Shown one piece after another: positions 2,248 through 14,245 of a stretch of DNA of 19,258 nucleotides. The translations under genes were made by a program, and so were the position numbers. Numbering within the stretch: the first letter of the stretch is position 1; every line of letters starts with the position of its first letter. This stretch comes from a virus, in UHGV virus genome UHGV-0045429. One strand, given 5' to 3'. Under the pieces are notes generated by a model. The model worked only from the letters and a program-made list of their open reading frames with translations, did no database searches and was not told the DNA's origin.

Positions 2248-2306
2248 ACATAACTCCGATGCCGCCAGCCACAACAGTACATGCTGCGGTTGGCGAATAT
2301 TGATAA

Positions 2307-2534
2307 TCAAAAATCAGTAGTTGGTTTTGTCTTACGTTTTTGGCGCCGTTTTTTCTTCGGCTTGATGCTTGGTGGCATAACGAGCCGACGCGCTGGTGGC
2401 AGACTAAAAACATGCTCACTGATCTGTCTGCGTTCTCTCATTTTCCATACATGCCATGCCGTCCAGTCACACCCATCATCACAGATGTGCTGCGAGCGGA
2501 TCAGCGCTTCATCGCCGGTTAAATTCTCTGTCAC
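2307..2534 (-). CDS. Small hypothetical protein with Cys/His cluster and strongly basic C-terminus (KPKKKRRQKRKTKP)
   Basis: 75-aa ORF with a GTG start overlapping the stop of the upstream large ORF (GTGA coupling); sits between the RecE-like gene and xis. No family recognised. Confidence 0.35.
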   Translation of the reverse strand: MTENLTGDEALIRSQHICDDGCDWTAWHVWKMRERRQISEHVFSLPPARRLVMPPSIKPKKKRRQKRKTKPTTDF

Positions 2535-4399
2535 TGCTCCGCCTCCGCACTTATAACCCCAGCGGCCAGCGCAGCTGCCATGTGTGGCAATTCGTCAAAA
2601 TCACCTCGATATGCCGGGTTAGCGCACATCCCCTGCAGAGCCGCTAGCGTCAGCTGCTGGCGGTAGGTCAGGGTGGTAGACAGTTCACCATTGGTGACGT
2701 CGCTACCCGGTGAGGAAGCAGGCAATTCTGGTTTTTTCTTCGGTTTGGCTGTGACAACTGCTGGAGCTATCACTATCGGTTTTGGTGGCTCTGGTCGGCG
2801 ACATTCCACGATCGCATCGAGGGCGATTTTCTGACGCAAGGCAGCATCATCAGACCAGCCATCAAGAATTGTCGTTGCGACATCGTGAATTTCGTCATCG
2901 TTGAAATTAGGGGACAGACAAAATTCAGTGGTGGCGATATCGATGATCAGCAGAGGAAGAACGTCAGCGATAATATGACCGGTGCATGCCACAACGCCTT
3001 CCGCTTCTTCCTTACCCATAACGTCAGTACGTCCCGAAAGCAGGTCGTTCAGTGCGTGGGCAATCTCAATTTCATGATCATCCAGAAGTGGGCGACCGTC
3101 TTCCTGTTCGGTCACTTCCGTTTTTTCGCCCTCATTTGAGGCGCTATTGGCAAATGCTGCATCCAGTTCCCTGTTGAGCTCCGCAGCGCGAGACGGGCAG
3201 ACTGCCGGTATTTCAGTTCCGTTCTGTAATGTCTGTTCGGTTTGATCATTGAGGACCACCTCATTATTTTTTTGTGGCAGTGGGGCGGATGTACGGCCGC
3301 ATGCGATATCAACAATCAGTGGATCCGGATTTGCGTGATTTGACTCAGTCAGGTTTTTATTGATGTATTCGCGCAGTTTTACCGGATCGCGGTAGATATC
3401 CTCCGGAGAGGATTTAATTAGGGCAATAATTGCTGCGCGGGAAAAATCCAGAATACCGGGCGTGCGACGTAACTGTTTCCACCATGCAGTAAAGCGCTCA
3501 TCGGTTGCGGTTTCTTCCATTTTTTTGGCACGCTCATGAACGGCATGCGGCAGTTCGTAGATGTCGAAATCCATAGCAATACCCAGAATACCTATGCAGA
3601 CCTCGCGGCGCAGGGTTGCCAGCGTATGAGGTAGAACGCGATCGGTTGGGTTACCGCCGCCGAGCGTACAGCCTGATTCGGTGTGTGTGTCTTCACTGGT
3701 TTCAGGTTCGTCAGTTTTAAGTTTTACTGGCTCGCGTTTATCGGGCGGGGTCTCAGCCCATTGGGTAAACAGGTTTTTATAGTCTGGCCATTTAGCATTG
3801 TCGCGCGCCCTCTGACGCACCCAGGCCAGGCATTCGGTCTGTTTTTCAGGAAGCATGGCAAGAATGCGGGGTTCTTTGGCAAGACCCTCTGCCTGTTCGC
3901 GTAAAGGGCTAAATTCATCATCATTCAGCATGTCGATTAACTGGCCATACTGAGAAGGGGTGATTTCATCAATGACACCAAACACCGCGAGGCAGTATGA
4001 GCGGGCCAGCACATCCAGTTCTTTCACCGGTTTCATTTTTTCTTCTGTCGCGTCAGCATTGAGTTGTTCATTACCGCCAGCAAGCTCTGGCTCAACTATG
4101 ACGCGCTCTGGTTCACCTTTCTCCGCATTCCAGACAATTTCACCAGTGAAGAGGTCGGTATAGAACTGTCCCTCAACAGTGCAGAACATTCCTTCTTCTG
4201 TTTCCCAGACCTTGGGGGCGAAATAATCATCAGCATAATCTGGCGCGAACTGTATAAAGTCAGCATGCAGTAATGTCTTTGCAATTGTTTTATTTTTCGC
4301 TTGTTTAAAAGCAACATAAACCGGAAGTGTACTGTCTTTTTCAAGTGCACTTTTTTTCGGTTCGAATCTCCCGCCAAATTTTTTTAATCCAGTTGTCAT
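2531..4399 (-). CDS. Large acidic early-left protein resembling the N-terminal region of RecE (exonuclease VIII); no C-terminal nuclease domain recognisable
   Basis: Start taken at MTTGLKKFGG (ATG 4399, GAGG RBS 6 nt upstream). Segments GGGNPTDR...MDFDIYELPHAVHERAKKMEE and LREYINKNLTESNHANPDPLIVDIACGRTSAPLPQ match what I recall of the E. coli Rac RecE N-terminal region. No recT-like ORF follows. Confidence 0.6.
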   Translation of the reverse strand: MTTGLKKFGGRFEPKKSALEKDSTLPVYVAFKQAKNKTIAKTLLHADFIQFAPDYADDYFAPKVWETEEGMFCTVEGQFYTDLFTGEIVWNAEKGEPERVIVEPELAGGNEQLNADATEEKMKPVKELDVLARSYCLAVFGVIDEITPSQYGQLIDMLNDDEFSPLREQAEGLAKEPRILAMLPEKQTECLAWVRQRARDNAKWPDYKNLFTQWAETPPDKREPVKLKTDEPETSEDTHTESGCTLGGGNPTDRVLPHTLATLRREVCIGILGIAMDFDIYELPHAVHERAKKMEETATDERFTAWWKQLRRTPGILDFSRAAIIALIKSSPEDIYRDPVKLREYINKNLTESNHANPDPLIVDIACGRTSAPLPQKNNEVVLNDQTEQTLQNGTEIPAVCPSRAAELNRELDAAFANSASNEGEKTEVTEQEDGRPLLDDHEIEIAHALNDLLSGRTDVMGKEEAEGVVACTGHIIADVLPLLIIDIATTEFCLSPNFNDDEIHDVATTILDGWSDDAALRQKIALDAIVECRRPEPPKPIVIAPAVVTAKPKKKPELPASSPGSDVTNGELSTTLTYRQQLTLAALQGMCANPAYRGDFDELPHMAAALAAGVISAEAEQ

Positions 4400-4406
4400 A
4401 ATAACC

Positions 4407-4607
4407 TCAATAATGTTTATGTGAATGGCGTGCATTGCTTCTGCTTAAATTACAGCGCCGTGGTTCATGAATTTGTTTGTAGGAGATAGCATGCTCAAGG
4501 CTACAGAAATAAGCAGTCACTACTCTCTTATGAATTCTTTTTGTTGATTTATACATGGAATCATCAGAACTCCATTTTTTACAATACGGACAGCACTCAA
4601 GTGTCAC
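4407..4607 (-). CDS. Small Cys-rich ORF (possible zinc-binding protein); weakly supported
   Basis: 66-aa ORF with GTG start preceded by GGGAGGG; translation MTLECCPYCKKW... Position is analogous to the small ydaE/racC-type genes upstream of recE in Rac, but there is no sequence-level confirmation. Confidence 0.3.
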   Translation of the reverse strand: MTLECCPYCKKWSSDDSMYKSTKRIHKRVVTAYFCSLEHAISYKQIHEPRRCNLSRSNARHSHKHY

Positions 4608-4732
4608 TTACCCTCCCTGCATAGCTGGCTATGACAGGGCCATCATTGATGGATATAGTTAGCCCTGCCAGTTAAGGCATAAATAAAAACTCTCTTAATT
4701 GTTTGAAGTTATTGAAGGGGGTAAATAAAAGT

Positions 4733-4918
4733 TCAGCGTAAAAACTCGCTAATATTAACCCTCTGGTCGTTAACTATTTTGGTCATTACTTTGATGAAAC
4801 ACATATCCAGCACCGCCTCATCTTTATATTTTTGAACGCCGGTTATATCAGCCACAGCTTTTTTATATTCAGCTTCAGCTGTACGCTGGGCAATATCTTC
4901 GCTGGTAAATTTAACCAT
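4733..4918 (-). CDS. Hypothetical small early-left protein (61 aa)
   Basis: ATG at 4918 (MVKFTSEDIAQRTAEAEYKK...); 8-nt overlap with the upstream ORF suggests translational coupling. The track ORF from 4990 is probably an over-extension. Confidence 0.5.
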   Translation of the reverse strand: MVKFTSEDIAQRTAEAEYKKAVADITGVQKYKDEAVLDMCFIKVMTKIVNDQRVNISEFLR

Positions 4919-5105
4919 TGGCACGCACCATCCTGAGTAAAGATTCCGTGTGATCGAGAGCTGCCTTCTGTTGTTCGTACAGTGCCTCAAGTTCAGCTGT
5001 AAGGCGGTCGCGAAACGCAGGAACGCTTAACTGGTAAATAAAATTACTTACTGAGCTTTCCACATCAGGATCCCCGTCCGGTATAACTGGCTGTGAATTT
5101 TTCAT
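4911..5105 (-). CDS. Hypothetical small early-left protein (64 aa)
   Basis: ATG at 5105 (MKNSQPVIPDGDPD...) with a GGAGGG RBS immediately upstream; first ORF of the leftward operon. Confidence 0.55.
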   Translation of the reverse strand: MKNSQPVIPDGDPDVESSVSNFIYQLSVPAFRDRLTAELEALYEQQKAALDHTESLLRMVRANG

Positions 5106-5135
5106 AAACCCTCCGGTAAAAAGGTGCCCATCGTG

Positions 5136-5155
5136 GGAGATGGGCAAATACCACG
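5136..5155 (-). terminator. Terminator-like hairpin just upstream of the first early-left gene
   Basis: On the minus-strand transcript: GCCCATC-TCCCAC-GATGGGC followed by ACCTTTTTA (7-bp stem plus U-rich tail) immediately 5' of the RBS of the 64-aa ORF. Confidence 0.35.
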
Positions 5156-5182
5156 CGGCACACACTGCAATTAATCACATCT

Positions 5183-5246
5183 GCAAGCGCACTCCGCCTG
5201 TTTCACACCTGTCACCCATAACTGGTAAGTGAAGGAGTGCGCTTGC
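5183..5246. repeat. 13-bp perfect inverted repeat with 38-nt spacer inside the ORF-poor leader
   Basis: GCAAGCGCACTCC at 5183-5195 and its reverse complement GGAGTGCGCTTGC at 5234-5246; arms extend by a further 5 bp with a bulge. Confidence 0.5.
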
Positions 5247-5940
5247 ATGTTGTGTTCGCGGGGTCTACTTCCCTCCTGACACGGTTCTTTCCCCGCGTCA
5301 TCGTGTGTTCATTCGGTACATGAAACCCATTTGCCGGGATTCCACCGACTCCCATCTGTTTTTAAAGCCACTCAGATATCGTCTGGGCTTGCTCGTCTTT
5401 TCGAGCCGTCAGCGTTCTACTTCCCGCCGTCACTGCCGTGTTTACACAGTTGAACGTCTGCCGCTGTTCTCGGTGCTGGTACCGCCACTGTCCAGGACAT
5501 TTATAAGGGCCGTCTCCAAGTGGTAACTCTTCCAGTCCCGGTAAGAACCCTGCGAGATGCTTAGCGTGACTGGCTGTTATTCCCTGAAAAAGGCTGGCGG
5601 TTACCGGAAATACACGGGAAAACACCGGGCCGCCAAAACAGGGGGCTACTTGTTATTGCTTTGGCCTGCTTTTATCCACATCAGGCGCGGTGGTAGGTAT
5701 CTTCGGGCGGGGGCCAGTGACCAGCTGGCATCCCTACGGTACTTTTCACCGACAACCGCGGGTTAGACGGTTCCGTTTCGTCGGATAGAGCTGTCGATGC
5801 TGGTAGTCACTCCAGCCCGTAACCCCTCCCGAAGACACCTGTTTAGCGTTAAAACTTAAAATCTGTTTCCCCTTTATCGCCAGGGTAAGCGGAACAGTTT
5901 GATTCTGAGTAATCACTGCGTGTGGTTACTTGATGGAATA

Positions 5941-5996
5941 AACTTAGGTTAACTTAAGTTTTCAATCAAGATTTATTTTGTAGAAAAACCTAAGTT
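5941..5996. promoter_or_regulatory. Left operator-like region (OL analogue): inverted AACTTAGGTT / AACCTAAGTT half-sites downstream of the repressor gene
   Basis: AACTTAGGTT at 5941-5950 and its exact reverse complement AACCTAAGTT at 5987-5996. The 10-mer AAAACCTAAG (5985-5994) recurs exactly at 6521-6530 in the repressor/cro intergenic region. Confidence 0.45.
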
Positions 5997-6046
5997 TATG
6001 GGTGTAAAAACATAACTCATTGATTTTATGAGTTGAATATTTTGGT

Positions 6047-6463
6047 TTATTTTACTCGGGTTTTTCTTTTTCTCTTCTCTGCTTCTAGCAGTTCTTGCAG
6101 GCGGATGCTGTTGTTTTCGTTACGAGCGCGTAACTCTTCGAGGAAGCCGATCTGATCTGACTCGGGAAGTGAATCAAAGAGTTCTAATAACTCTAATTGA
6201 ATATCAGTTAATTCTCTTTGCTCTTCTAATGGTACCGGCGCGCCCGGAATCTGGGCCTCATCACCAAAAAGAAGCCATGCTGGCGCGCACTGCAGGCCTT
6301 TGCTAAGGGCGAACAACCTCTTTCCCGCCGGTTGAGTTTCATCGCGTTCCCACTGGGAAATAGTTACGTGTGCGACCTTTACCAGTTTGCCCAAGGCAGC
6401 CTGGGAAAGGTTTAGCTCTTTGCGTCGCCTTAAAAGACGAGTACCGAAGGTTTCTTTATCCAT
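6047..6463 (-). CDS. DicA/RacR-type prophage repressor (XRE-family HTH, no S24 peptidase domain)
   Basis: 138-aa ORF; N-terminal HTH (LNLSQAALGKLVKVAHVTISQWERDETQP), LFALSKGLQCAPAWLLFGDE and LELLELFDSLPESDQ closely parallel E. coli DicA as I recall it. No recognisable RBS before the ATG. Confidence 0.85.
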   Translation of the reverse strand: MDKETFGTRLLRRRKELNLSQAALGKLVKVAHVTISQWERDETQPAGKRLFALSKGLQCAPAWLLFGDEAQIPGAPVPLEEQRELTDIQLELLELFDSLPESDQIGFLEELRARNENNSIRLQELLEAEKRKRKTRVK

Positions 6464-6484
6464 ATTAGGTAATTCTAAATTCTC

Positions 6485-6531
6485 TTGACTTAAATTTCCC
6501 TACGATCTAGTTTCCTTAGGAAAACCTAAGG
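6485..6531 (+). promoter_or_regulatory. Right operator/promoter region (OR analogue) between divergent repressor and cro-like genes
   Basis: TTGACT at 6485-6490; perfect palindrome CCTTAGG-AAAA-CCTAAGG at 6514-6531, overlapping the AAGGAG RBS of the DicC-like gene. Confidence 0.5.
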
Positions 6532-6541
6532 AGATTTAATC

Positions 6542-6766
6542 GTGCTTAAAAAAGACGCAGTTATTTTTTTTGGAAGCAAATCAAAATTGGCAAAGGCTGC
6601 TGGTGTTGCTGCTTCATCAGTTTCTGTATGGGGCGACCTCGTGCCAGAGAAAAATGCGATGAGACTACAAATCGCTTCTGATGGTGCCCTGCGATATGAC
6701 CCCGAGGTCTATGACAAACATGCTAAAGCAAAACGGTCAGGAGAATTGAATGATGAAAATCAATGA
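6542..6766 (+). CDS. DicC/YdaS-like Cro-type regulator
   Basis: 74-aa ORF, GTG start with AAGGAG 8 nt upstream; MLKKDAVIFFGSKSKLAKAAG...GDLVPE...MRLQ...YDPEVYD closely matches E. coli DicC from memory; divergent from the repressor. Confidence 0.8.
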   Translation: MLKKDAVIFFGSKSKLAKAAGVAASSVSVWGDLVPEKNAMRLQIASDGALRYDPEVYDKHAKAKRSGELNDENQ

Positions 6767-7229
6767 GATCAAGTTACTGGCTATCGAGCTTGAAGAGTGG
6801 GCGATGAAGGATGGCAGGAAAGGGGGCTGGAAAAAGATTGTCCCACTGATTACCTCGCATCACTACGGTGATTTGCTGGATAGCCTGGCAGATATCGTGG
6901 ACCCGTCAGAGTATGTGCGCCGCCTGCATAACAACACGCAGATCATCCAGCGGGCATTTCGAAATGACACGCCGAACTATCGTGGTCAGGCAGCTGCGCT
7001 TGCGCCAGCAATCAGGGCTGCGATGGATGCAGAGCTGGCTGGTCAGCATGACTTACATAACCTGGTGGCCATTGCTAACCGCGAGTGCATCGAGGCGACC
7101 AGTGCGGTGCTGACTGGTAAGCCAATGCAGGTAATCCGCAAAGAAACGTCAGAGGCAATTCAGGCACTGGCCGATCTCATCCCCGGCGTCAGCATCCAGT
7201 TTAACCATATTGGTCCGCGCGCGGCGTAA
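6750..7229 (+). CDS. YdaT-like protein (third gene of the racR-ydaS-ydaT type immunity cluster)
   Basis: 159-aa ORF overlapping the DicC-like stop by 17 nt; AGGAG RBS; central NTQIIQRAFRNDTP...LAPAIRAAMD segment resembles the YdaT family as I recall it. Confidence 0.6.
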   Translation: MMKINEIKLLAIELEEWAMKDGRKGGWKKIVPLITSHHYGDLLDSLADIVDPSEYVRRLHNNTQIIQRAFRNDTPNYRGQAAALAPAIRAAMDAELAGQHDLHNLVAIANRECIEATSAVLTGKPMQVIRKETSEAIQALADLIPGVSIQFNHIGPRAA

Positions 7230-7241
7230 CAGGAGGCTCCC

Positions 7242-7484
7242 ATGCTTGCCCAGGAATTAGTAGACCGCATGAAAAATGCGATGAAGCACAAAGTACCGGC
7301 GGAGACAGTCGATCGCAGCGCTGAACTGATTCCGGGGATGAAATACCGCAACGAACGCGGACGCATGGTGACGGTAATGAGAGTTTCTCATCTTCGGGTT
7401 ATGTACCGATACGAAGGTTATCAGGACATCTGCGAGACAGGCCGGAGAGAGTTTGATTTGAAATTTAAGAAGGTGGAATTGTGA
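7242..7484 (+). CDS. Hypothetical phage protein (80 aa)
   Basis: ATG at 7242 with AGGAGG 5 nt upstream; tightly packed between the YdaT-like and HNH genes. Confidence 0.6.
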   Translation: MLAQELVDRMKNAMKHKVPAETVDRSAELIPGMKYRNERGRMVTVMRVSHLRVMYRYEGYQDICETGRREFDLKFKKVEL

Positions 7485-7486
7485 GT

Positions 7487-7840
7487 ATGAATTGCTGTGG
7501 CTGCCACAATCCTTTGGATGAGGACGAAATCTATAAACTTGCAGAGCGGTGCGGAATTTCGATCTGTGACCGTTGCGCGGGTAAGGTCGAACGCAGCTAT
7601 AACGAATGGCACGGTGGTCCTGGATATTTCCCCAAACCCCCTAAACACCCCCGCAAAAATATCTCACCGGGAGTGAGATTAAAAATTTATCGAAGGGATA
7701 AATACCGCTGTAAATATTGCGGCACCAGTGATGATCTCACCATTGATCATATTCAGCCTGTCTCTAAAGGCGGCGGAAATGAAGATGAAAATCTCCAGAC
7801 CTTATGTCGTGCCTGTAACCGCAGGAAGGGGGCGTCATGA
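7487..7840 (+). CDS. HNH endonuclease
   Basis: Cys-rich N-terminus plus H-N-H core ...DLTIDHIQPVSKGGGNEDENLQTLCRACNRRKG; ATG 7487 preferred over GTG 7481 because AGGTGGA lies 9 nt upstream. Confidence 0.8.
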   Translation: MNCCGCHNPLDEDEIYKLAERCGISICDRCAGKVERSYNEWHGGPGYFPKPPKHPRKNISPGVRLKIYRRDKYRCKYCGTSDDLTIDHIQPVSKGGGNEDENLQTLCRACNRRKGAS

Positions 7841-8772
7841 GCTCACTAATCAAGTTACTCGATCGCCCAGTGGCGTATCAACCAGCATTTGCACAGCTCA
7901 GGGCGGGAAAAGTGAAATCAGGCCCGTCGGCTGCTGTCCTGCTTTCCCAGTTCGTCTACTGGCATAACCGCATGGGCGGTGAGTGGATGTACAAGACGCG
8001 TGAAGACATAAAAAAAGAGACGGGGTTAAGCCGTGATGAGCAGGAAACAGCGAGAAAAAGACTGGTTGCTCTGGGGGTACTACAGGAAGAACTACGAGGG
8101 GTTCCTGCGACTGTACATTACAAAATTAATACCGGGCGTCTGGAGGTACTTTTGCTGGCTCCAGACCAGGCAGAATCACAGATGGGTGCAACGCCGCCAA
8201 CTAGAAAGCGGCAATCCCGCCAACTGGATGGCGGCAACACACCCAACAAGATGGCGGTAACCCCGCCAACAAGCAGGGGGGAATACCGCCAGCAAGATGG
8301 TGGTGATCCCGCCAACTTTCCTACAGGAGATTACACAGAGAGTACTCAGGAGATCACTCAAAGGGCCGGAGATGAATTTTCTGTGGATAACTTTTCTGAC
8401 GAGGACGTGAAATTTTCAGAGTGGTTCTTTGCTCGGGTCGTCGAGATGCATGAGCGAGCTGCTGAGTTTGACGGAACCATGTCACGCCCCGATGAACCTG
8501 ACTGGACTGAATGGGTGGGCGAGGTTCGCCTGCTGCGGGAAGAGCAGGGGTGCGATCACACGCAGATGCGCCGCATGGTTGAGCGCATTCAGGGGGATCC
8601 GTTCTGGTGCCCAAGGGTAAAAACCGCGCACGCCCTGCGGGACAAGTGGGCTGACCTGGTGGTGAGACTGTGCCCAGTGAGCTTGGCTGATCCGCCGCGA
8701 CAATCCACTTTCGACGATGAATATTACAAAAACGATTCTGAGTCCGCTGCGAAAGCAGGTTTCAGGATCTGA
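7837..8772 (+). CDS. Phage replication initiator (lambda O-like replisome organiser) with origin iterons inside the coding sequence
   Basis: 311-aa ORF, ATGA overlap with the HNH stop; N-terminal winged-helix-like segment (LLSQFVYWHNRMGGEWMYKTREDIKKETGLSRDEQETARKRLVALGVL); tandem DNA repeats in the middle of the gene encode the repetitive linker. Confidence 0.65.
   Translation: MSSLIKLLDRPVAYQPAFAQLRAGKVKSGPSAAVLLSQFVYWHNRMGGEWMYKTREDIKKETGLSRDEQETARKRLVALGVLQEELRGVPATVHYKINTGRLEVLLLAPDQAESQMGATPPTRKRQSRQLDGGNTPNKMAVTPPTSRGEYRQQDGGDPANFPTGDYTESTQEITQRAGDEFSVDNFSDEDVKFSEWFFARVVEMHERAAEFDGTMSRPDEPDWTEWVGEVRLLREEQGCDHTQMRRMVERIQGDPFWCPRVKTAHALRDKWADLVVRLCPVSLADPPRQSTFDDEYYKNDSESAAKAGFRI
8190..8320. 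repeat. Iteron-like direct repeats (putative replication origin)
   Basis: CCCGCCAAC at 8216-8224, 8262-8270 and 8308-8316 (plus CCGCCAAC at 8194-8201), each preceded by GATGG(C/T)GG at 8227, 8250 and 8295; unit about 22-24 bp; CCGCCA/TGGCGG gives internal dyad symmetry. Confidence 0.6.
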
Positions 8773-8800
8773 GAGAACTGAATTTAACCTGGAGAATTTT

Positions 8801-9463
8801 ATGGAAACCATTTTAGACGTACTGAAAGCGATGGAAAAAGCGACTGCCCGTGAAATTGCGGCGCGCATGAAAATTGAGCCGGCGGCGGTGATCGGGATGC
8901 TGCGTGAGCACGAAGAGCGTAATGAGGCTGTTCAGGCTAACGGGTACTGGAAAGTTGCCACCGGGGAAGTTAAATCACAGCCAAAAGCGATCAGTTCTTT
9001 CAGCAAAGCGCCGGTAAGTGTATCAGTCAGCGACGTCATCGCATTACTGGCGGAACATGGGCCACAGACATCCCTTGAGCTGGCAACACTGGCAGGTATT
9101 GAGTCAAAACGTGTGGCGCCAATGCTGACTCACCACATGACAAAAGGGCGGATCATCCGCGAAAAAGTAGGCAGCAAGTTTGTTTATTCGGTGCCGGCCA
9201 CTGCGTCAGTGAAAAACAAAAGCTCTGCACCACGGGAACCGGAAACATCAACACCACTGGTACCAGAAAAATCTGTCACTGAAATTGTTGAGGAAATCCC
9301 CGCTTTCGTCAGCCGTCCTGATGATCTGCTGATCCCAACGGTACGCGGTATCTCAAGTGAAATTCGGCGCACAAAAGCGAAGCTGGCTAACCTGGAAAAA
9401 CTTCGTGAAGCCGTTCGCAGCATTCGCAAACACGGCGCGCTGATGCAGGAGCTGGCGCAATGA
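8801..9463 (+). CDS. Hypothetical protein with two tandem winged-helix-like segments
   Basis: Start taken at METILDVLKAMEK (GGAG RBS); two similar blocks (ILDVLKAMEKATAREIAARMKIEPAAVIGML... and VIALLAEHGPQTSLELATLAGIESKRVAPML...). No Walker motif, so not a DnaC/P-type helicase loader. Confidence 0.6.
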   Translation: METILDVLKAMEKATAREIAARMKIEPAAVIGMLREHEERNEAVQANGYWKVATGEVKSQPKAISSFSKAPVSVSVSDVIALLAEHGPQTSLELATLAGIESKRVAPMLTHHMTKGRIIREKVGSKFVYSVPATASVKNKSSAPREPETSTPLVPEKSVTEIVEEIPAFVSRPDDLLIPTVRGISSEIRRTKAKLANLEKLREAVRSIRKHGALMQELAQ

Positions 9464-9684
9464 AACAGTCTGAGTTACCGCGCTGTCCGGCCTGCGGAAA
9501 TATGCCCGAATACGCGCTAAAGCCAAACCATATGGGATGGGTATGGGGTGGATTGAAATGTCCGTATGACCATTACCGCGTGAATTTGGATGGTCCAGCC
9601 GGTAGCCGCGTGCAGGCAGAAAAAAAGCTGGCGCCACAGTGGATTGAACTGGTCGAGAAAGCTAATCAGGAGAAATCAGCGTGA
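9460..9684 (+). CDS. Small zinc-ribbon protein, possibly Lar-type restriction alleviation family
   Basis: 74-aa ORF; AGGAG RBS; LPRCPACGN...GLKCPYDHY (C-x2-C ... C-x3-H) pattern. Family call is tentative. Confidence 0.5.
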   Translation: MKQSELPRCPACGNMPEYALKPNHMGWVWGGLKCPYDHYRVNLDGPAGSRVQAEKKLAPQWIELVEKANQEKSA

Positions 9685-10043
9685 AACCAACCTACGAAGA
9701 ACTGACAGTACAGCTCGCTAACGCCGAGAGCAAGTGCAGGGAGCTGGTGGTGGAATGTTCGACAATCAAAGCCATGAGCGATTGCCTGTCTGAAGAGCTG
9801 CGTGGTTATGAATCTGATGGGGCGTTTGAAGGACCGAAGATGCATCTACTGTGGTGGAAAGCAGAAACTCCCGCGACCGACGCTTTCCTGGCTGAAGTGC
9901 GGGCGCAGGTCCACAAGGAAGGTGCTCACTTTGTAGCAAATAGAATGCTGGCCGCCACTCTTTTTGTTTTCGTTATCCTCAATGCACCCGCATGTAACCC
10001 GCTTCGGCGGGTTAGCTTCTTCTATCTGAGATTTTGTTGCTAA
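9681..10043 (+). CDS. Hypothetical protein (N-terminal coiled-coil-like, hydrophobic C-terminus)
   Basis: GTG start with AGGAG 9 nt upstream, overlapping the previous stop. The C-terminal ~15 codons read through hairpin 9996-10013, so the 3' end may be a fusion artefact. Confidence 0.45.
   Translation: MKPTYEELTVQLANAESKCRELVVECSTIKAMSDCLSEELRGYESDGAFEGPKMHLLWWKAETPATDAFLAEVRAQVHKEGAHFVANRMLAATLFVFVILNAPACNPLRRVSFFYLRFCC
9996..10013 (+). terminator. Hairpin AACCCGC-TTCG-GCGGGTT (copy a of a repeated terminator-type stem-loop); weak U-tract
   Basis: Perfect 7-bp stem with tetraloop; identical 18-mer recurs at 17742-17759. Confidence 0.4.
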
Positions 10044-10205: not shown

Positions 10206-10559
10206 ATGATCAATGATGTTAAAAATGCAAAAATTGAAGAATATTTCACCGTTCTAAAAGAAAAGAGCAGACCTCCAAGCAAAGGTGGGAACACAAAGGC
10301 TCTGCATGCCCACTACATTAAAATTGATGGAATGTTATACAGTTTTCTCGCGTTCGGTTCTAAGCAATGGATTTTCAAAACCGACCGAGTATCATTTAAG
10401 TTCGAAATGAACGGCGAATACAGGAATATTCTCCGGGAATCCATTAGCACTATTGATAGCAATGGGGAAGTAGTAATCAGAGGGTTGCGTGGTTTTAGCA
10501 AGAAGATAAGGACTGCTGATACGCGTTTACCAGCATCCAGAAGGGAATGCAGGGATTGA
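10206..10559 (+). CDS. Hypothetical protein (117 aa) in AT-rich cargo cassette
   Basis: ATG at 10206 with AAGGAG upstream; AT-rich codon usage unlike the flanking phage core (by eye); no family recognised. Confidence 0.6.
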   Translation: MINDVKNAKIEEYFTVLKEKSRPPSKGGNTKALHAHYIKIDGMLYSFLAFGSKQWIFKTDRVSFKFEMNGEYRNILRESISTIDSNGEVVIRGLRGFSKKIRTADTRLPASRRECRD

Positions 10560-10912: not shown

Positions 10913-10968
10913 ATGCCCCTTACCAATAAATAATTAACCTGAATTATTGTAAATTATTGAGGTTTGTT

Positions 10969-11607
10969 ATGGGTGGCATTTTCGATGAATCATGGTCTGA
11001 GCAATTTACTCAACGCGTTGAGGCTTTGCGTAAACTGGATGATCAGTCCGTTACTCAACCGCTTTTCAGAGAAAAAGCGGATCTGATTTTTACTCAAATG
11101 GCTGACCGTGTTCGTTCGCGTACGCGACAGCAGCTCGGAGAAATCGACGTTAGCGGGATAACATTTGATTACGCAATCCGCTATTACGTTAATCACGACA
11201 CTGGTGATCCGGTTCTGGATCACCTTGTGTCCAGGGTAGGGCCATTCTGTGACCAGATGAAGATCAGCACGGAGGCGTACGGCACAGCGGCGTTCTGCTG
11301 CGCGCTCATGATGTTGAAAGGCGAGTTGCGTATAGCGTATGCATTTTTCAGCATGCTGATGCGCCCGCTCGTTTCTGCGTACAGGTATAACACCGACGCG
11401 AAACGACGTGGCTCTGCTGGTGGGCGCCCGACAAATCCACTTAAAAACGAGGCACTGGAACTGGCGCGGGTATTTACAAAATCCTATCCTGATTCAACGA
11501 TGGTGGCTGTTGTTAACGCCGTCATTTCTGACCTTGAATCTCACTACGTTGGCACTCCGTCAGCACGCACAATAAAGCGCTGGATTCAGCAGGACCGGAA
11601 AAAATAA
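10969..11607 (+). CDS. Hypothetical protein with C-terminal resolvase-type HTH-like segment (putative DNA-binding regulator)
   Basis: ATG 10969 (GAGG RBS; the track start at 10957 is a TTG). C-terminal GGRPTNPLKNEALELARVF...TPSARTIKRWIQQ resembles the GRP-led HTH of serine recombinases, but no recombinase catalytic domain is present. Confidence 0.55.
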   Translation: MGGIFDESWSEQFTQRVEALRKLDDQSVTQPLFREKADLIFTQMADRVRSRTRQQLGEIDVSGITFDYAIRYYVNHDTGDPVLDHLVSRVGPFCDQMKISTEAYGTAAFCCALMMLKGELRIAYAFFSMLMRPLVSAYRYNTDAKRRGSAGGRPTNPLKNEALELARVFTKSYPDSTMVAVVNAVISDLESHYVGTPSARTIKRWIQQDRKK

Positions 11608-12036: not shown

Positions 12037-12351
12037 ATGGCGCGTAAAAAATCGTATATAACCAAAGCCGAGCAACAGCACCTCGATCGCGTAGCGTCGT
12101 TGGGTTGTTGTGTCTGCAAAAATCTTGGTTACCCCGACTCTCCAGCGGGGATTCATCATATCCGAACCGGGCAGGGTGCAAGCCAGCGCTCCAGCCATTT
12201 CGAAACTCTGCCGTTATGCGCTGCCCACCACCAGACGGGTGGCTATGGCATTGCTTATCACGCTGGCCCTGAGATATGGGCGAAAAAATACGGCACCGAA
12301 ACTGAGCTATTAATTCAGGTTACGTCAGATTTAAACGGGGACTGGTCATGA
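12037..12351 (+). CDS. YbcO-like nin-region protein (putative nuclease, Cys/His-rich)
   Basis: 104-aa ORF directly upstream of and overlapping rusA, as ybcO-rusA in DLP12; CCVCKN...HHIR...PLCAAHH metal-binding-like pattern. Confidence 0.6.
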   Translation: MARKKSYITKAEQQHLDRVASLGCCVCKNLGYPDSPAGIHHIRTGQGASQRSSHFETLPLCAAHHQTGGYGIAYHAGPEIWAKKYGTETELLIQVTSDLNGDWS

Positions 12352-12707
12352 CCCGTTACCCCGTAACTCCAATCGGCAAACCCCGAATGACAAGAGCCGA
12401 CAAATGGAAGCAGCGCCCGCCGGTGCTCCGTTATCGTGTTTTCTGCGACGAGGTGCGCCTGCATGAAATCGTTCTGCCTGAAAGCGGCGCCCACGTTATT
12501 TTTGTTCTGCCAATGCCAGCGAGCTGGAGCCAGAAAAAACGCGCCAGCATGAACGGACAGCCTCACCAGCAAAAACCGGATATAGACAACCTCACCAAAT
12601 CCCTCATGGATGCCATTTACGACGACGACGCCCACATTTGGGACGTCCGTGCATCAAAAATCTGGGGTGATGAAGGCGCGATTATTATTCAGGAGGGCAA
12701 GGCGTGA
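12348..12707 (+). CDS. rusA: RusA-family Holliday junction resolvase
   Basis: 119-aa ORF; ...KPDIDNLTKSLMDAIYDDDAHIWD... matches the RusA acidic catalytic region as I recall it. Confidence 0.8.
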   Translation: MTRYPVTPIGKPRMTRADKWKQRPPVLRYRVFCDEVRLHEIVLPESGAHVIFVLPMPASWSQKKRASMNGQPHQQKPDIDNLTKSLMDAIYDDDAHIWDVRASKIWGDEGAIIIQEGKA

Positions 12708-14245
12708 TGCCCTTAACATACGGATCCGTATGCAGCGGAATTGAGGCAGCGAGTGTGGCGTGGGAGGTATTGGGCTGGCGGCCGTCATGGTTTTCTCAGT
12801 TCGATCCGGAACACAATTACAAAAACGGTCCTGATTTCCCGTCTGCGGTGCTGGCGCATCACTGGCCGCACGTAAAAAACCTTGGCGATATGACAAAAAT
12901 CGCCGCAGCAATCCGGCTCGGAGAAATTGAAGCGCCCGACGTTCTGGTAGGTGGTACTCCCTGCCAGGCATTCAGCATTGCTGGACTGCGTAATGGCCTG
13001 ACGGATTCACGCGGCCAACTAACCCTCGCTTTTGTAGAACTGGTAAACGCAATTGATGAAAAACGAAGAGAACAGGGAAAACCACCCGTCATTGTCGTCT
13101 GGGAAAATGTCCCCGGAGTATTCAGCAGCAGAGATAACGCTTTCGGATGTTTTCTTGCAGGGCTTGCCGGCGAAAGCCGTGAACTGGAATCACCAGGGCG
13201 AAAATGGACAAACGCTGGTTATGTGCTGGGACCAGAAAGGGCTGTCTGCTGGCGAGTGCTCGACGCTCAATTTTTCGGAGTGGCCCAACGACGCCGCCGT
13301 GTGTTTGTTATCGCAAGCGCTAGAGGGGATATCGATCCCGCAAAAATACTTTTTGAGTCCGAAGGCATGCGCCGGGATACTCCGCCGCGCAGAGAAACGG
13401 GGGAGATCGTTGCCGCCCTTATTGCAAACGGCGTTGGAGTGTGTGGCGCAGACGATAATCAGGGGCAGGCAGGGCACCTGATTGCCATGGCGCACGGACA
13501 GGCAGGGGCAGAAATTAAAACGGATGATTCCGCGCCTACGCTTACCTGTAACCATGAAGCGCCTATTGTTTTTAGCTGTAATGGACACGCATCGTTTACG
13601 CCGGGAGTCAGTGCTCTGCGAACTAAATCAGGCGCAGACCATGAAACGCTGGCTGTTCATGGTACGCAAGATCCCGACACTTTAAAGAACCTGGCACATA
13701 CGCTGGGTCGAAACCATGGGCAAGAGAATGCCGTTGCCTACTGTCTCCAGCATGCACAAATTAACCGGGCAGATAACGCTGGCCCACAGGGTAAAGGATG
13801 GCAAGAAGAATGCAGATTCACTCTGGATTCTCGTTCTTGTGCTGATGCAGTCGCTTATGCCTTCAAGGCCGGGCAGGGCGCAAAAGCGGGTGGCATTGGC
13901 TGGGCAGAGGAACAATCCCCGACACTGACGGCCGCCAGCAGTGGATCGAATTTATCCCCTTCAGTGGTGAAAAATATGGCCGTTCGCCGCCTTACTCCTG
14001 TCGAATGTGAACGCCTGCAGGGCTTCCCCGATAACCACACTTTAATCCCCCGTGATAAGCGTAAGCAGATTACTGCTGATGAGTACGCATACGCGCGCCA
14101 CCACAACCCAAAAATAACCGCAGAGGAAGCCTACAGGCTGGCGAAGGATGGTCCGCGCTATAAGGCCATTGGTAACAGCATGGCCGTACCGGTTATGCGC
14201 TGGATAGGAAGGCGAATCTCTAACGCTCTGGAGCAGACAATATGA
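12707..14245 (+). CDS. Orphan DNA (cytosine-5) methyltransferase
   Basis: Motif I-like YGSVCSGIEAA, motif IV GGTPCQAFSIAG, motif VI VVWENVPG, QRRRRVF, C-terminal RRLTPVECERLQGFPDNHT and GNSMAVPV; large variable region between. AGGAGGG RBS; start overlaps the rusA stop. No adjacent restriction endonuclease ORF. Confidence 0.9.
   Translation: MPLTYGSVCSGIEAASVAWEVLGWRPSWFSQFDPEHNYKNGPDFPSAVLAHHWPHVKNLGDMTKIAAAIRLGEIEAPDVLVGGTPCQAFSIAGLRNGLTDSRGQLTLAFVELVNAIDEKRREQGKPPVIVVWENVPGVFSSRDNAFGCFLAGLAGESRELESPGRKWTNAGYVLGPERAVCWRVLDAQFFGVAQRRRRVFVIASARGDIDPAKILFESEGMRRDTPPRRETGEIVAALIANGVGVCGADDNQGQAGHLIAMAHGQAGAEIKTDDSAPTLTCNHEAPIVFSCNGHASFTPGVSALRTKSGADHETLAVHGTQDPDTLKNLAHTLGRNHGQENAVAYCLQHAQINRADNAGPQGKGWQEECRFTLDSRSCADAVAYAFKAGQGAKAGGIGWAEEQSPTLTAASSGSNLSPSVVKNMAVRRLTPVECERLQGFPDNHTLIPRDKRKQITADEYAYARHHNPKITAEEAYRLAKDGPRYKAIGNSMAVPVMRWIGRRISNALEQTI

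What the first reader, a model, noticed from the sequence alone, without database searches (positions are those of the whole stretch)
8190..8320. Iteron array (putative ori) embedded in the O-like gene; no recognisable helicase loader
Four to five ~22-bp units of GATGG(C/T)GG...CCCGCCAAC lie in the middle of the replication-initiator gene, as the lambda ori lies within O. The next gene (8801-9463) has no Walker A motif, so a P/DnaC-type loader is not evident. The element may depend on host loaders or use the tandem winged-helix protein in a non-canonical way.
Basis: partly seen in the sequence, partly recalled or inferred. Interest (0 to 1): 0.38.

Follow-up and report, generated by a model that had tools for sequence, protein, structure and literature searches.

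The report
Lambda-type origin, no loader gene
A prophage replication origin made of six 23-base repeats sits inside its own initiator gene, as in phage lambda, but this whole phage family carries no helicase-loader gene and most likely borrows the host's loader instead.

Summary
There are six 23-bp units at 8180-8317, not four to five 22-bp units. Each unit is a palindrome, TGGCGG-N5-CCGCCA. The repeat is far beyond chance (81/115 matches at lag 23; shuffles 49.9±1.6). The units fall in all three reading frames, inside the disordered linker of an O-like initiator (7837-8772).

About 70 distinct relatives carry the same array at the same place in the gene. The two half-sites change together across relatives (G/C versus T/A, never mixed), and so does residue 55 (Arg versus Gln). 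A 12-bp repeat block follows the array (8318-8362) and has frozen synonymous sites. A DnaA box follows that (8382-8390).

The initiator's C-terminal domain is homologous to that of lambda O (hhalign 99.6%). No P, DnaC or DnaB gene is present in the window, or next to the initiator in any relative examined. The complete phage SfIV has none annotated either.

The next gene (8801-9463, DUF1627/YdaW) is a tandem winged-helix protein. In other prophages it sits after complete O+P or initiator+DnaC modules, so it is not a loader substitute.

The likeliest mechanism is direct recruitment of host DnaB-DnaC. Relatives end in the tail of host DnaT (IPxGFRG); the window has a degenerate form (AKAGFRI). 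This is a lambda-type origin in a little-studied loader-less variant. Interest is moderate.

The parts
7837..8772 (+). O-like replication initiator gene (311 aa). It has an N-terminal winged helix, a disordered linker and a lambda-O-type C-terminal domain.
   Evidence: phrog_9773 'replication initiation O-like' E = 1.6e-62. AlphaFold2 model from 42 sequences: residues 1-110 and 188-280 at pLDDT about 90; residues 111-185 below 50. The exact protein is found on GCA_902363475.1 contig CABJAD010000001.1.
7837..8166 (+). Coding region for the N-terminal winged-helix DNA-binding domain (aa 1-110)
   Evidence: Model elements H29-45, H55-62, H66-79, strands 82-87 and 92-97. Best Foldseek PDB matches are RepA_N plasmid initiator N-domains (5kbj, 4pql, 4pt7) and the DnaD N-domain (2v79), E 0.02-0.2, probability 0.82-0.97. 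Residues 55, 56 and 60 separate the two iteron-specificity groups.
8180..8202 (.). Iteron 1: AGATGGGTGCAACGCCGCCAACT
8203..8225 (.). Iteron 2: AGAAAGCGGCAATCCCGCCAACT
8226..8248 (.). Iteron 3: GGATGGCGGCAACACACCCAACA
8249..8271 (.). Iteron 4: AGATGGCGGTAACCCCGCCAACA, a perfect palindromic core TGGCGG-N5-CCGCCA
8272..8294 (.). Iteron 5: AGCAGGGGGGAATACCGCCAGCA, the most degenerate unit
8295..8317 (.). Iteron 6: AGATGGTGGTGATCCCGCCAACT
8318..8362 (+). Conserved 12-bp repeat block, about three copies of (A)CAGGAGATTAC, purine-rich on the top strand. It is a candidate DNA-unwinding element or host-factor site.
   Evidence: TRF: 12-bp period, 3.2 copies, 8324-8360. The first 23 nt after the array are identical to Salmonella phages F1055 and 118970_sal3, although the proteins are only about 61% identical. 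Synonymous sites are frozen across 55 relatives: major-codon fraction 0.94 here against 0.55 in the N-terminal domain. Other loader-less O-like genes have analogous 12/13-mers (ACAGATCTTAAAA x3) after their iterons.
8317..8417 (.). Least stable 100 bp of the central part of the gene, immediately right of the iterons
   Evidence: 40-bp nearest-neighbour stability is -51 to -54 kcal/mol here and -61 to -63 over the iterons. This is modest: the window-wide mean is -56±4.7. GC is 0.45-0.50 here against 0.57-0.63 over the iterons.
8382..8390 (-). Perfect DnaA box (TTATCCACA on the minus strand)
   Evidence: A perfect box lies at the equivalent position in L005, L023, L024 and L028, with one mismatch in L004. 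No perfect box occurs in 67 relatives with other C-terminal domains. On its own it is not significant: the window has 5 boxes with up to 1 mismatch against 4.1 expected.
8398..8679 (+). Coding region for the helical C-terminal domain (aa 188-281), homologous to the lambda O C-terminal domain
   Evidence: hhalign of family alignment A4 against lambda O residues 170-273: probability 99.6%, E = 1.8e-24. tblastn of lambda O against the window: E = 1.25e-12. It is 47% identical to the C-domain of an Enterobacter prophage initiator that is followed by a DnaC-like gene.
8740..8769 (+). C-terminal tail ...DSESAAKAGFRI, a degenerate form of the DnaT-type tail IPxGFRG
   Evidence: hhalign aligns the family tail to the last 17 residues of E. 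coli DnaT (VNTVSEPDSQIPPGFRG), E = 0.0013 but probability only 18%.
8801..9463 (+). DUF1627 / YdaW-family gene (220 aa): two winged-helix domains plus a long C-terminal helix. It occupies the slot after the replication module and is not a loader.
   Evidence: Pfam DUF1627 E = 1e-14; phrog_630 E = 3.6e-47. AlphaFold2: winged helix at 1-52 and 76-130, helix 181-219. Foldseek best matches are ScpB and SelB tandem winged helices, E about 2e-4 to 1e-3. Contexts. hhalign against lambda P: E = 0.37.
6047..7840 (.). Upstream early-right control region: cI-like repressor (6047-6463, minus strand), Cro (6542-6766), YdaT/cII-like (6750-7229), DUF4222 (7242-7484) and HNH endonuclease (7481-7840)
   Evidence: The same ydaS/cro - ydaT - initiator - [loader] - DUF1627 layout is seen in L100, L104 and Rac. 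In the window the loader slot is empty.

Best explanation
This is the replication origin of a lambdoid prophage, probably of Citrobacter, embedded in the linker-coding part of its own initiator gene.

**Shown by the data.**
- Six 23-bp palindromic iterons lie at 8180-8317.
- A DNA-constrained 12-bp repeat block follows them (8318-8362).
- A DnaA box follows that (8382-8390).
- All three elements lie in the segment that encodes the disordered linker (aa 111-185) of an O-like protein.
- That protein has an N-terminal winged helix and a C-terminal domain homologous to the lambda O C-terminal domain.
- No phage-encoded helicase or loader is present.

**Inferred mechanism.**
1. Dimers of the N-terminal domain bind each iteron. 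Residue 55 probably reads position 5 of the half-site.
2. The resulting multi-protein complex, like lambda's O-some, destabilises the adjacent, less stable 100 bp that contains the 12-mers.
3. The C-terminal domain and its tail bring in the host DnaB-DnaC complex directly, taking the place of lambda P. DnaA bound at the neighbouring box may assist.

DUF1627 is an accessory gene of the slot that ren occupies in lambda. It is not part of the loading step.

The confidence of 0.7 applies to the core claim: an iteron origin bound by this initiator, with no phage-encoded loader. The specific route of host DnaB-DnaC recruitment through the C-domain and tail deserves about 0.45.
For: **Array.** It is real and highly non-random and is not a peptide repeat. 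The position matches lambda: iterons at nt 349-433 of O against nt 344-481 here.

**Conservation.** About 70 distinct relatives from 19 genome loci and 77 IMG/VR loci carry 4-6 units of 23 bp in the same register, followed by the same 12-mer block.

**Half-sites change together.** Across 67 genes the consensus at unit positions 5 and 19 is T/A in 51, G/C in 14 and C/A in 2. There is no G/A or T/C combination.

**Protein changes with the site.** Arg55 and Lys/Gln60 occur in all 14 G/C-type genes. Gln55 occurs in all 42 T/A-type genes, and residue 60 there is never Lys or Gln.

**DNA-level constraint.** Synonymous sites of the 12-mer block are frozen, 0.94 against 0.55.

**Structure.** The origin-coding segment is the disordered linker. 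The N-domain resembles iteron-binding RepA_N and DnaD-N winged helices. The C-domain is homologous to lambda O.

**No loader.**
- None is found in the window.
- None lies downstream in 17 relatives inspected in detail.
- None follows the O-like gene in the three further loader-less phage loci inspected.
- None is annotated anywhere in the complete SfIV genome, whose gp41 shares this C-domain.

**The same C-domain family has three kinds of partner.** It occurs with P (lambda, L100, PHB10), with a DnaC-like loader (L104) or alone.

**Tail correlates with loader type.**
- Initiators next to P end in NTDWI... (lambda, L100, PHB10).
- Initiators next to close DnaC homologues (about 50% identical to E. 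coli DnaC) end in IPPGFRG, VPPGFRG, PPGFN or IPEDF.
- E. coli DnaT, encoded just upstream of dnaC, ends in IPPGFRG.
- 49 of 84 loader-less relatives end in a GFR-type tail.

**DnaA box.** It is conserved in position in five relatives.
Against: - No experiment shows binding, melting or autonomous replication for any member of this family. None was found in the library searched. PMC8951638 states there is no knowledge of the replication proteins of the non-lambda 'Eru' Stx-phage modules.
- The region right of the iterons is only modestly less stable (GC 0.45-0.50). It is not a marked AT-rich element like lambda's.
- The window's own tail (AKAGFRI) lacks the IP and the terminal G of the DnaT-type motif.
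- The hhalign match to DnaT is short, with low probability (18%).
- What the DnaT tail does is not established. [quoted passage not shown]
- The tail-versus-loader correlation rests on about 15 hand-picked loci.
- The DnaA box is absent from most relatives with this C-domain, 12 of 18, so it cannot be essential to the family.
- In lambda (established knowledge) the homologous C-domain binds P, and there is no P here. The partner of this domain is therefore an open question, not a demonstrated host contact.
- A very divergent loader among the small unassigned ORFs (9460-9684, 9681-10043, 10206-10559, 10957-11607) is not strictly excluded.
Confidence: 0.7

Rival explanations
1. Helicase recruitment is mainly DnaA-dependent, as in iteron plasmids (pSC101, P1, F, R6K, RK2). 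Host DnaA bound at the box 8382-8390 recruits DnaB-DnaC, and the phage initiator only marks and bends the origin.
For: - A perfect DnaA box lies 65 bp right of the iterons, inside the less stable stretch.
- A perfect box sits at the equivalent position in L005, L023, L024 and L028, including one relative (L028) whose surrounding linker peptide differs.
- The N-domain resembles plasmid RepA_N initiators.
Against: - The box is absent from 12 of 18 relatives with the same C-domain, including SfIV.
- The window-wide count of boxes is at chance level.
- A lambda-O-type C-domain and a conserved tail would be unexplained.
Confidence: 0.2
2. The DUF1627 tandem winged-helix protein (8801-9463) is an unusual helicase loader or adaptor.
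For: - It is the gene immediately after the initiator, on the same strand, 28 bp away.
- It has two winged helices plus a long conserved C-terminal helix.
- A DUF1627 gene follows the initiator in 5 of the 18 loci whose downstream genes were clustered.
Against: - The family is found after modules that already have a loader: O+P+DUF1627, initiator+DnaC-like+DUF1627, and Rac ydaU-ydaV-ydaW.
- Most loader-less relatives lack it. They have PerC-like, DUF977, methylase or RusA genes instead.
- It shows no similarity to lambda P.
- Its best structural matches are ScpB and SelB tandem winged helices.
- It has a weak PHROG match to Ren-like exclusion proteins.
Confidence: 0.06
3. The module cannot replicate on its own. 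Either the loader gene was lost and the prophage is cryptic, or it uses a P or DnaC-like protein supplied by another prophage.
For: - The C-domain is of the lambda O type, which in lambda needs P (established knowledge).
- A truncated 180-aa allele of this very gene exists in Citrobacter youngae (P0027).
Against: - The absence of a loader is a family trait. It holds for 84 distinct relatives.
- It also holds for phage records deposited as complete genomes: SfIV across its whole genome, and the O-like locus of Klebsiella ST405-OXA48phi1.2 and Providencia 117lys.
- The gene is intact, and its origin elements are under purifying selection.
Confidence: 0.08
4. The repeats are not an origin. They could be autoregulatory or copy-control ('handcuffing') sites, a recombination junction between gene modules, or a by-product of a low-complexity linker.
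For: - The domain swap point between N- and C-terminal modules lies just right of the 12-mer block.
- Iterons in plasmids also serve copy control (established knowledge).
Against: - The period is not a multiple of 3, and the units lie in three frames.
- The half-sites change symmetrically with the DNA-binding domain.
- The position is the same as the experimentally defined lambda origin.
- The 12-mers that follow are conserved.
- A junction alone does not explain six phased palindromes.
Confidence: 0.06
5. The initiator feeds into the PriA-dependent restart pathway. After local opening, or R-loop or D-loop formation, it stands in for DnaT in a PriA/PriB primosome instead of contacting DnaC directly.
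For: - The DnaT-type tail is present in relatives.
- NCBI names the family 'primosomal protein I'.
- An exonuclease VIII-like recombination gene lies in the same prophage.
Against: - Only the last 17 residues or so resemble DnaT. No DnaT N- or C-domain is present.
- The tail tracks with DnaC-type loaders next to the initiator, not with any PriA or PriB feature.
Confidence: 0.08

Closest known systems
Phage lambda ori / O protein / P protein (initiator plus helicase-loader module)
   Same: - The origin lies inside the initiator gene at the same distance from the start codon: nt 349-433 in lambda, nt 344-481 here.
- The iterons have internal dyad symmetry, spaced 20-24 bp in lambda and 23 bp here.
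- A less stable region lies to the right of the iterons.
- The protein has the same layout: N-terminal DNA-binding domain, flexible linker, C-terminal domain.
- The C-terminal domain is homologous (hhalign 99.6%, E = 1.8e-24).
   Different: - There is no P gene.
- There are six iterons, not four.
- The N-terminal domain is not detected as Pfam Phage_rep_O and did not align to lambda O's N-domain.
- The tail is GFR-type, not NTDWI-type.
- The element right of the iterons is a conserved 12-bp repeat of about 45% GC, not a strongly AT-rich tract.
- A DnaA box is present.
Loader-less O-like initiators of Shigella phages SfIV and SfII and relatives, annotated 'primosomal protein' or 'DNA replication protein O'
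   Same: - The C-terminal domain is the same (29% identity over 90% of the protein; E = 2e-28).
- Iterons lie at the same position in the gene (15 bp x 4.3 in SfIV).
- No P, DnaC or DnaB is annotated in the complete SfIV genome.
   Different: - The N-terminal domain family and the iteron sequence and period differ.
- The tail is the canonical IPAGFRG.
- The downstream gene is PerC-like, not DUF1627.
- To my knowledge none of these has been studied experimentally.
Rac prophage ydaU-ydaV-ydaW and E. coli dnaT-dnaC
   Same: - The gene order is the same: ydaS/cro - ydaT - initiator - (loader) - DUF1627.
- Relatives of the window protein share the C-terminal tail with YdaU and DnaT (VNTVS.PDS.IPPGFRG).
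   Different: - The window has no ydaV/dnaC-type gene.
- YdaU and DnaT have unrelated globular domains.
- The window's tail is degenerate (AKAGFRI).
Iteron-containing theta plasmids (pSC101, P1, F, R6K; RepA_N plasmids of Firmicutes)
   Same: - The origin has iterons plus a DnaA box.
- A single plasmid- or phage-encoded initiator relies on the host helicase and loader.
- The N-domain fold is nearest to RepA_N and DnaD-N.
   Different: - The origin lies inside the initiator gene.
- The C-domain is of the lambda O type.
- This is a phage early-operon context under cI/Cro control.
'Eru' replication-region types of Stx phages (Llarena et al., PMC8044961 and PMC8951638)
   Same: - These are non-lambda replication regions in lambdoid prophages.
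- Types Eru8 and Eru11 carry a YdaT-like gene directly next to cI, and Eru8 also an HTH_36 protein in the first two positions, as in the layout here.
   Different: - Those papers type the regions by gene content only and give no origin or mechanism.
- The window is not from E. coli: there is no megablast match in 5,426 E. coli genomes.

Membership tests
Lambda-type origin embedded in the initiator gene | An array of at least 4 direct repeats with internal dyad symmetry, in the middle of the initiator gene | tested here: met
   Six 23-bp units, core TGGCGG-N5-CCGCCA, at nt 344-481 of the gene. Lambda's lie at nt 349-433.
Lambda-type origin embedded in the initiator gene | The repeats lie in the segment that codes the flexible linker between the DNA-binding and C-terminal domains | tested here: met
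   In the AlphaFold2 model, residues 111-185 have pLDDT below 50. The iterons encode aa 115-161.
Lambda-type origin embedded in the initiator gene | An AT-rich, easily melted region directly next to the iterons | tested here: inconclusive
   8317-8417 is the least stable stretch of the mid-gene (-51 against -61 kcal/mol per 40 bp). It is only about 1 sd from the window mean, with GC 0.45-0.50. A conserved 12-mer repeat sits there.
Lambda-type origin embedded in the initiator gene | The initiator binds the repeats specifically | not testable with these tools
   Indirect support only: the half-sites change symmetrically, together with residues 55, 56 and 60.
Lambda-type origin embedded in the initiator gene | The fragment confers autonomous replication | not testable with these tools
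   This needs a cloning experiment.
Lambda O / P two-gene replication module | A P-type helicase loader gene (Pfam PF06992) directly downstream of the initiator | tested here: not met
   There is no Pfam or PHROG hit, tblastn with two P proteins gives E above 2, and hhalign of the downstream gene against lambda P gives E = 0.37.
Lambda O protein family | The C-terminal domain is homologous to lambda O residues about 170-273 | tested here: met
   hhalign probability 99.6%, E = 1.8e-24. tblastn E = 1.25e-12.
Lambda O protein family | An N-terminal Phage_rep_O domain (Pfam PF04492) | tested here: not met
   Pfam gives no family at E up to 0.01. hhalign aligned only the C-domain. The fold is a winged helix of the DnaD-N / RepA_N kind.
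PHROG 9773, 'replication initiation O-like' | A full-length profile match | tested here: met
   E = 1.6e-62, residues 1-278 against profile positions 3-277 of 288.
DnaT (primosomal protein I), the name NCBI gives the homologues | The DnaT N-terminal oligomerisation domain and C-terminal three-helix ssDNA-binding domain | tested here: not met
   hhalign against E. coli DnaT aligns only the last 17 residues, probability 18%. A profile search of PDB sequences found no DnaT.
DnaT (primosomal protein I), the name NCBI gives the homologues | The extreme C-terminal motif ...PD..IPPGFRG | tested here: inconclusive
   It is present in many relatives (49 of 84 have a GFR-type tail) and in YdaU, POCJ13 gp16 and L104. 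The window has only ...DSESAAKAGFRI.
DnaC / IstB-type AAA+ helicase loaders | Walker A/B ATPase fold | tested here: not met
   No substantial ORF in the window has a Walker A motif. tblastn with E. coli DnaC and a phage DnaC-like protein gives E of at least 1.9.
Iteron plasmid origins | A DnaA box next to the iterons | tested here: met
   A perfect TTATCCACA lies at 8382-8390 on the minus strand, conserved in five relatives. It is not universal in the family.
DUF1627 / YdaW family (gene 8801-9463) | A Pfam PF07789 match and tandem winged-helix architecture | tested here: met
   Pfam 55 bits against a cut-off of 28.1. Model: winged helix 1-52, winged helix 76-130, helix 181-219.

The most novel reading that the evidence does not exclude
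The conserved C-terminal peptide shared by E. coli DnaT, Rac YdaU and many loader-less phage initiators (...PD..IPxGFRG; degenerate in the window as AKAGFRI) is a portable docking motif for DnaC-class loaders. It would let a single phage protein with a lambda-O-type C-domain recruit the host DnaB-DnaC complex to an iteron origin without any phage-encoded loader. If so, these phages reveal how DnaT hands over DnaB-DnaC during replication restart. A 2026 structural paper (PMC13377028) calls that step unknown.
Probability: 0.3. Interest if true: 0.65.

Novelty: new variant of a known kind. Interest (0 to 1): 0.4.

Why it matters
An origin inside the initiator gene is the textbook lambda design, so that part is ordinary. 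The interesting part is that a large family of enterobacterial prophages, including deposited phage genomes such as SfIV, keeps the lambda-O-type C-terminal domain and carries no P, DnaC or DnaB gene.

This family offers a natural system for asking how a single initiator gets the host helicase onto DNA. It also provides a ready-made specificity pair for protein-DNA recognition studies: Arg55 with G/C half-sites against Gln55 with T/A half-sites.

The tail shared with DnaT and YdaU gives a concrete hypothesis for how DnaB-DnaC is recruited in replication restart, testable with peptides. On the practical side, the work corrects the misleading 'primosomal protein I' annotation. It also shows that DUF1627/YdaW is not a replication loader.

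Tried and rejected
**Searches that found nothing.**
- Near-identical DNA: no megablast match in phages or in E. coli genomes.
- Solved structures by sequence, with a single sequence and with a profile: nothing significant.
- NCBIfam: no model matches either protein.
- Literature: 'initiator-solo' gave no papers, and YdaU/YdaV/DnaT gave nothing relevant. I recall that Weigel and Seitz (2006) classified phage replication modules, possibly with an initiator-only class. I could not verify this in the library.

**Ideas tested and rejected.**
- Peptide repeat: the period is 23, and the units lie in three frames.
- DUF1627 as a P homologue: hhalign E = 0.37.
- DUF1627 as a conserved partner of this initiator: downstream genes vary among relatives.
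- Initiator as a DnaT homologue: only the tail matches.

**Checks that were uninformative.**
- The promoter and terminator scan of 5900-9700 found nothing useful. The minus-strand 'terminators' within 8207-8268 are the palindromic iterons themselves.
- DnaA-box enrichment in the window as a whole is not significant.
Full report
**Setting.** The window is the early region of a lambdoid prophage.
- Integrase: 746-2035, minus strand.
- Exonuclease VIII-like gene: 2531-4435, minus strand.
- cI-like repressor: 6047-6463, minus strand.
- Cro: 6542-6766.
- YdaT/cII-like gene: 6750-7229.
- DUF4222 gene: 7242-7484.
- HNH endonuclease: 7481-7840.
- O-like initiator: 7837-8772.
- DUF1627 gene: 8801-9463.
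- Several small ORFs, then RusA (12348-12707), a cytosine methylase (12704-14245) and a Q-like antiterminator (14242-14877).

The exact initiator protein is encoded on GCA_902363475.1 contig CABJAD010000001.1. The DUF1627 protein is 99% identical to Citrobacter youngae proteins. No near-identical DNA exists in the phage or E. coli collections.

**The observation.** Tandem Repeats Finder finds a 23-bp period with 6.0 copies at 8180-8316, consensus AGATGGCGGCAATCCCGCCAACA. Printed in register, the six units start at 8180, 8203, 8226, 8249, 8272 and 8295.
- At lag 23 the best 115-nt stretch of the whole window has 81 matches. In 200 dinucleotide-preserving shuffles the value is 49.9±1.6, maximum 56.
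- Each unit carries the palindrome TGGCGG-N5-CCGCCA. With up to two mismatches this pattern hits all six units and three other sites, against 0.78 expected.
- Because 23 is not a multiple of three, the units lie in three different codon phases. The repeat is therefore a DNA feature and not a peptide repeat.

**Comparative evidence that it is an origin.** By tblastn the closest phage relatives are Salmonella phages F1055 and 118970_sal3, about 61% identical over the N-terminal 180 residues. SfIV and SfII match at 28-29% over about 90% of the protein.
- F1055 and 118970_sal3 have a 23-bp array at the same place with a related consensus, AGATTGCGGAAACCCCGCAAACA. SfIV has 15 bp x 4.3.
- One scan of bacterial genomes gave 19 loci and one scan of IMG/VR gave 77. 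Among 84 distinct genes, about 70 carry a 23-bp array of roughly 2-6 copies as scored by TRF. The array lies at nt 305-582 from the start codon, directly followed by a 12-bp repeat.
- Even a Rhodanobacter relative, 48% identical in the N-domain, has 23 bp x 5 inside its gene.
- In lambda the annotated iterons lie at nt 349-433 of O, spaced 20-24 bp. Here they lie at nt 344-481.

**Co-variation.** The relatives fall into two half-site classes, TGGCGG...CCGCCA (including the window) and TTGCGG...CCGCAA.
- At the gene level, positions 5 and 19 of the unit are T/A in 51 genes, G/C in 14 and C/A in 2. They are never G/A or T/C. A symmetric change in both arms is what a dimer on a palindrome predicts.
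- The protein changes with it. All 14 G/C-type genes have Arg55 and Lys/Gln60. All 42 T/A-type genes have Gln55, and never Lys or Gln at position 60. Position 56 also discriminates.
- Arg with guanine and Gln with adenine fit the usual recognition preferences. This last point is an inference from general knowledge.

**Structure of the initiator.** An AlphaFold2 model built from 42 sequences has three parts.
- Residues 1-110 form a confident winged-helix domain.
- Residues 111-185 are disordered.
- Residues 188-280 form a confident helical domain.

The iterons, the 12-mers and the DnaA box are all encoded within the disordered segment, where protein constraints are weakest. Foldseek against the PDB matches the N-domain best to iteron-binding RepA_N plasmid initiators (5kbj, 4pql, 4pt7) and to DnaD-N (2v79). 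The E-values are weak (0.02-0.2) but the probabilities are 0.82-0.97.

A profile of the family against lambda O aligns the C-domain to lambda O residues 170-273 at probability 99.6%, E = 1.8e-24. Plain tblastn gives E = 1.25e-12. The N-domain is not Pfam Phage_rep_O. The protein is thus a mosaic: a non-lambda winged helix joined to a lambda-type C-domain. Among relatives the same N-domain and origin are joined to at least two other C-terminal types, for example Phg_2220_C. The swap point lies just right of the 12-mer block.

**The 12-mer block.** Right after iteron 6 comes TTCCTACAGGAGATTACACAGAGAGTACTCAGGAGATCACT. TRF scores it as 12 bp x 3.2 at 8324-8360.
- The first 23 nt are identical in the window and the Salmonella phages.
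- Across 55 collinear relatives, the fraction using the major codon at conserved residues is 0.94 in this block. Eight of 12 scorable codon columns are at 0.96 or above. In the N-domain the fraction is 0.55, with 2 of 74 columns at 0.95 or above. Selection therefore acts on the DNA itself.
- Other loader-less O-like genes have a comparable element after their iterons: ACAGATCTTAAAA x 3.2 in Klebsiella phage ST405-OXA48phi1.2 and ATCTTAAAACAG x 2.6 in a Providencia phage. From memory, these recall the oriC 13-mers.
- The 100 bp at 8317-8417 is the least stable part of the mid-gene, but only modestly so.
- I read the block as the unwinding element or a host-factor site. This is an inference.

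**DnaA box.** A perfect TTATCCACA lies on the minus strand at 8382-8390.
- The window-wide count of boxes is at chance level.
- The same perfect box sits at the equivalent position in L005, L023, L024 and L028, with one mismatch in L004. In L028 the surrounding peptide differs.
- No perfect box occurs in 67 relatives with other C-domains, and none occurs in 12 of 18 with this C-domain.
- It is a plausible auxiliary site, not a family-defining one.

**The missing loader.**
- No ORF between the repressor and the Q gene matches P, DnaC, DnaB or a primase.
- tblastn with two P proteins, E. coli DnaC and a phage DnaC-like protein is negative. No substantial ORF has a Walker A motif.
- This is a family trait. 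In 17 relatives examined gene by gene, the downstream genes are DUF1627, PerC-like, DUF977, methylases, RusA or Rha/ANT, and never a loader.
- The complete genome of phage SfIV, whose gp41 shares this C-domain, has no other replication gene annotated.
- Three further phage loci have no loader following the O-like gene.

**DUF1627.** The model shows two winged helices (1-52, 76-130) and a long C-terminal helix (181-219). The best structural matches are ScpB and SelB tandem winged helices.

In other prophages the family lies directly after complete replication modules:
- Phage_rep_O + Phage_lambda_P + DUF1627 in E. coli.
- HTH_36 initiator + DnaC-like + DUF1627 in Enterobacter.
- ydaU-ydaV-ydaW in Rac.
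- The same arrangement in POCJ13.

It is unrelated to lambda P. It has only weak winged-helix similarity to Ren. It therefore occupies the slot after the module, and in the window the loader slot before it is simply empty.

**How the helicase might be recruited.** The lambda-type C-domain occurs with three kinds of partner: P (lambda, L100, PHB10), a DnaC-like loader (L104, whose C-domain is 47% identical to the window's), or nothing. The extreme C-termini differ in step with the partner.
- **With P:** ...NTDWIYGVDL...NTDWINEV......NTDWIDGVLE.
- **With close DnaC homologues** (49-51% identical to E. coli DnaC over the full length)...IPPGFRG (Rac YdaU, POCJ13 gp16)...VPPGFRG (L104)...PPGFN (Aeromonas phage) and ...IPEDF (Morganella phage).
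- **With distant DnaC-like loaders** (32-35% identical): two initiators lack the motif.
- **E. coli DnaT:** it is encoded just upstream of dnaC and ends VNTVSEPDSQIPPGFRG. This is nearly the same as YdaU's VNTVSLPDSAIPPGFRG.
- **Loader-less initiators:** SfIV gp41 ends IPAGFRG, the Klebsiella phage initiator IPKGFRG and 716R3 NSGFRT. Of 84 distinct relatives, 49 have a GFR-type tail.
- **The window:** it ends AAKAGFRI, a degenerate form.

hhalign aligns the family tail to DnaT's last 17 residues, but with low probability. I infer that the tail is a docking peptide for DnaC-class loaders. Loader-less initiators would then use the host DnaB-DnaC complex. This has not been shown. The function of the DnaT tail is not described in the papers I could read. 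[quoted passage not shown]

**Comparison with what is known.** The origin design is that of lambda. The protein belongs to PHROG 9773 and shares lambda O's C-domain. It fails two defining features of the lambda O/P module: there is no P gene and no Phage_rep_O N-domain. It is not a DnaT homologue, despite the NCBI name 'primosomal protein I'. Functionally it looks closest to iteron plasmids that rely on the host DnaA, DnaB and DnaC. Papers on Stx-phage 'Eru' replication regions list similar gene layouts but give no origin or mechanism (PMC8044961, PMC8951638). Brézellec et al. (PMC5509034) noted a DnaT C-terminal motif in DopC, a domesticated O-like protein.

**Verdict.** The array is a genuine, conserved iteron origin of lambda design: a new member of a known kind of origin. 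It sits in a loader-less variant of the module that has not been characterised experimentally. Interest is moderate and rests mainly on the loader-less design and the DnaT-type tail hypothesis.

Noticed in passing
protein P0027; corresponds to window 7837-8376: A 180-aa protein 99% identical to the first 180 residues of the window initiator occurs on 13 contigs, including a 4.99-Mb Citrobacter youngae chromosome. It is a truncated allele that ends just before the DnaA box. It could be a decayed prophage or an N-domain-only protein that titrates the origin.
   Followed up: no
window 5672-5680 (+): A second perfect DnaA box (TTATCCACA) lies left of the cI-like repressor gene.
   Followed up: no
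window 5941-5960: A 10-bp palindromic unit, AACTTAAGTT x 2, lies just outside the 3' end of the cI-like gene. It is possibly an operator-like or terminator-like element.
   Followed up: no
window 9228-9273: A 24-bp x 1.9 tandem repeat lies inside the disordered linker of the DUF1627 gene. The period is a multiple of 3, so it is probably a peptide-level duplication.
   Followed up: no
window 7481-7840: An HNH endonuclease gene overlaps the initiator start codon by 4 nt (ATGA). The other loci whose upstream genes were inspected have no HNH gene at this position. It looks like a mobile insertion between the YdaT/DUF4222 genes and the initiator.
   Followed up: partly
L119 (Rac) 1191-3480; L109 (E. 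coli K-12) 2239-3518: Rac ydaU-ydaV mirrors the host dnaT-dnaC operon. The YdaU and DnaT tails are almost identical (VNTVSLPDSAIPPGFRG and VNTVSEPDSQIPPGFRG). YdaV-clade loaders are about 50% identical to DnaC over their full length.
   Followed up: partly
L111 (Klebsiella phage ST405-OXA48phi1.2), nt 418-630 of gene 1766-2860: Seven 22-bp iterons are followed by three 13-mers, ACAGATCTTAAAA, that resemble the E. coli oriC 13-mer consensus. The same layout occurs in Providencia phage PSTRCR_117lys.
   Followed up: partly
L022 (Symbiopectobacterium purcellii) 4001-6036: Two initiator-like genes lie in tandem: a 317-aa relative without a detectable array, followed by a 361-aa protein with a Phg_2220_C domain.
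   Followed up: no
L117 and L118 compared with L116: The identical initiator protein occurs behind two different immunity regions (138-aa repressor with 74-aa Cro, or 136-aa repressor with 79-aa Cro). This shows exchange of the replication module between phages.
   Followed up: no
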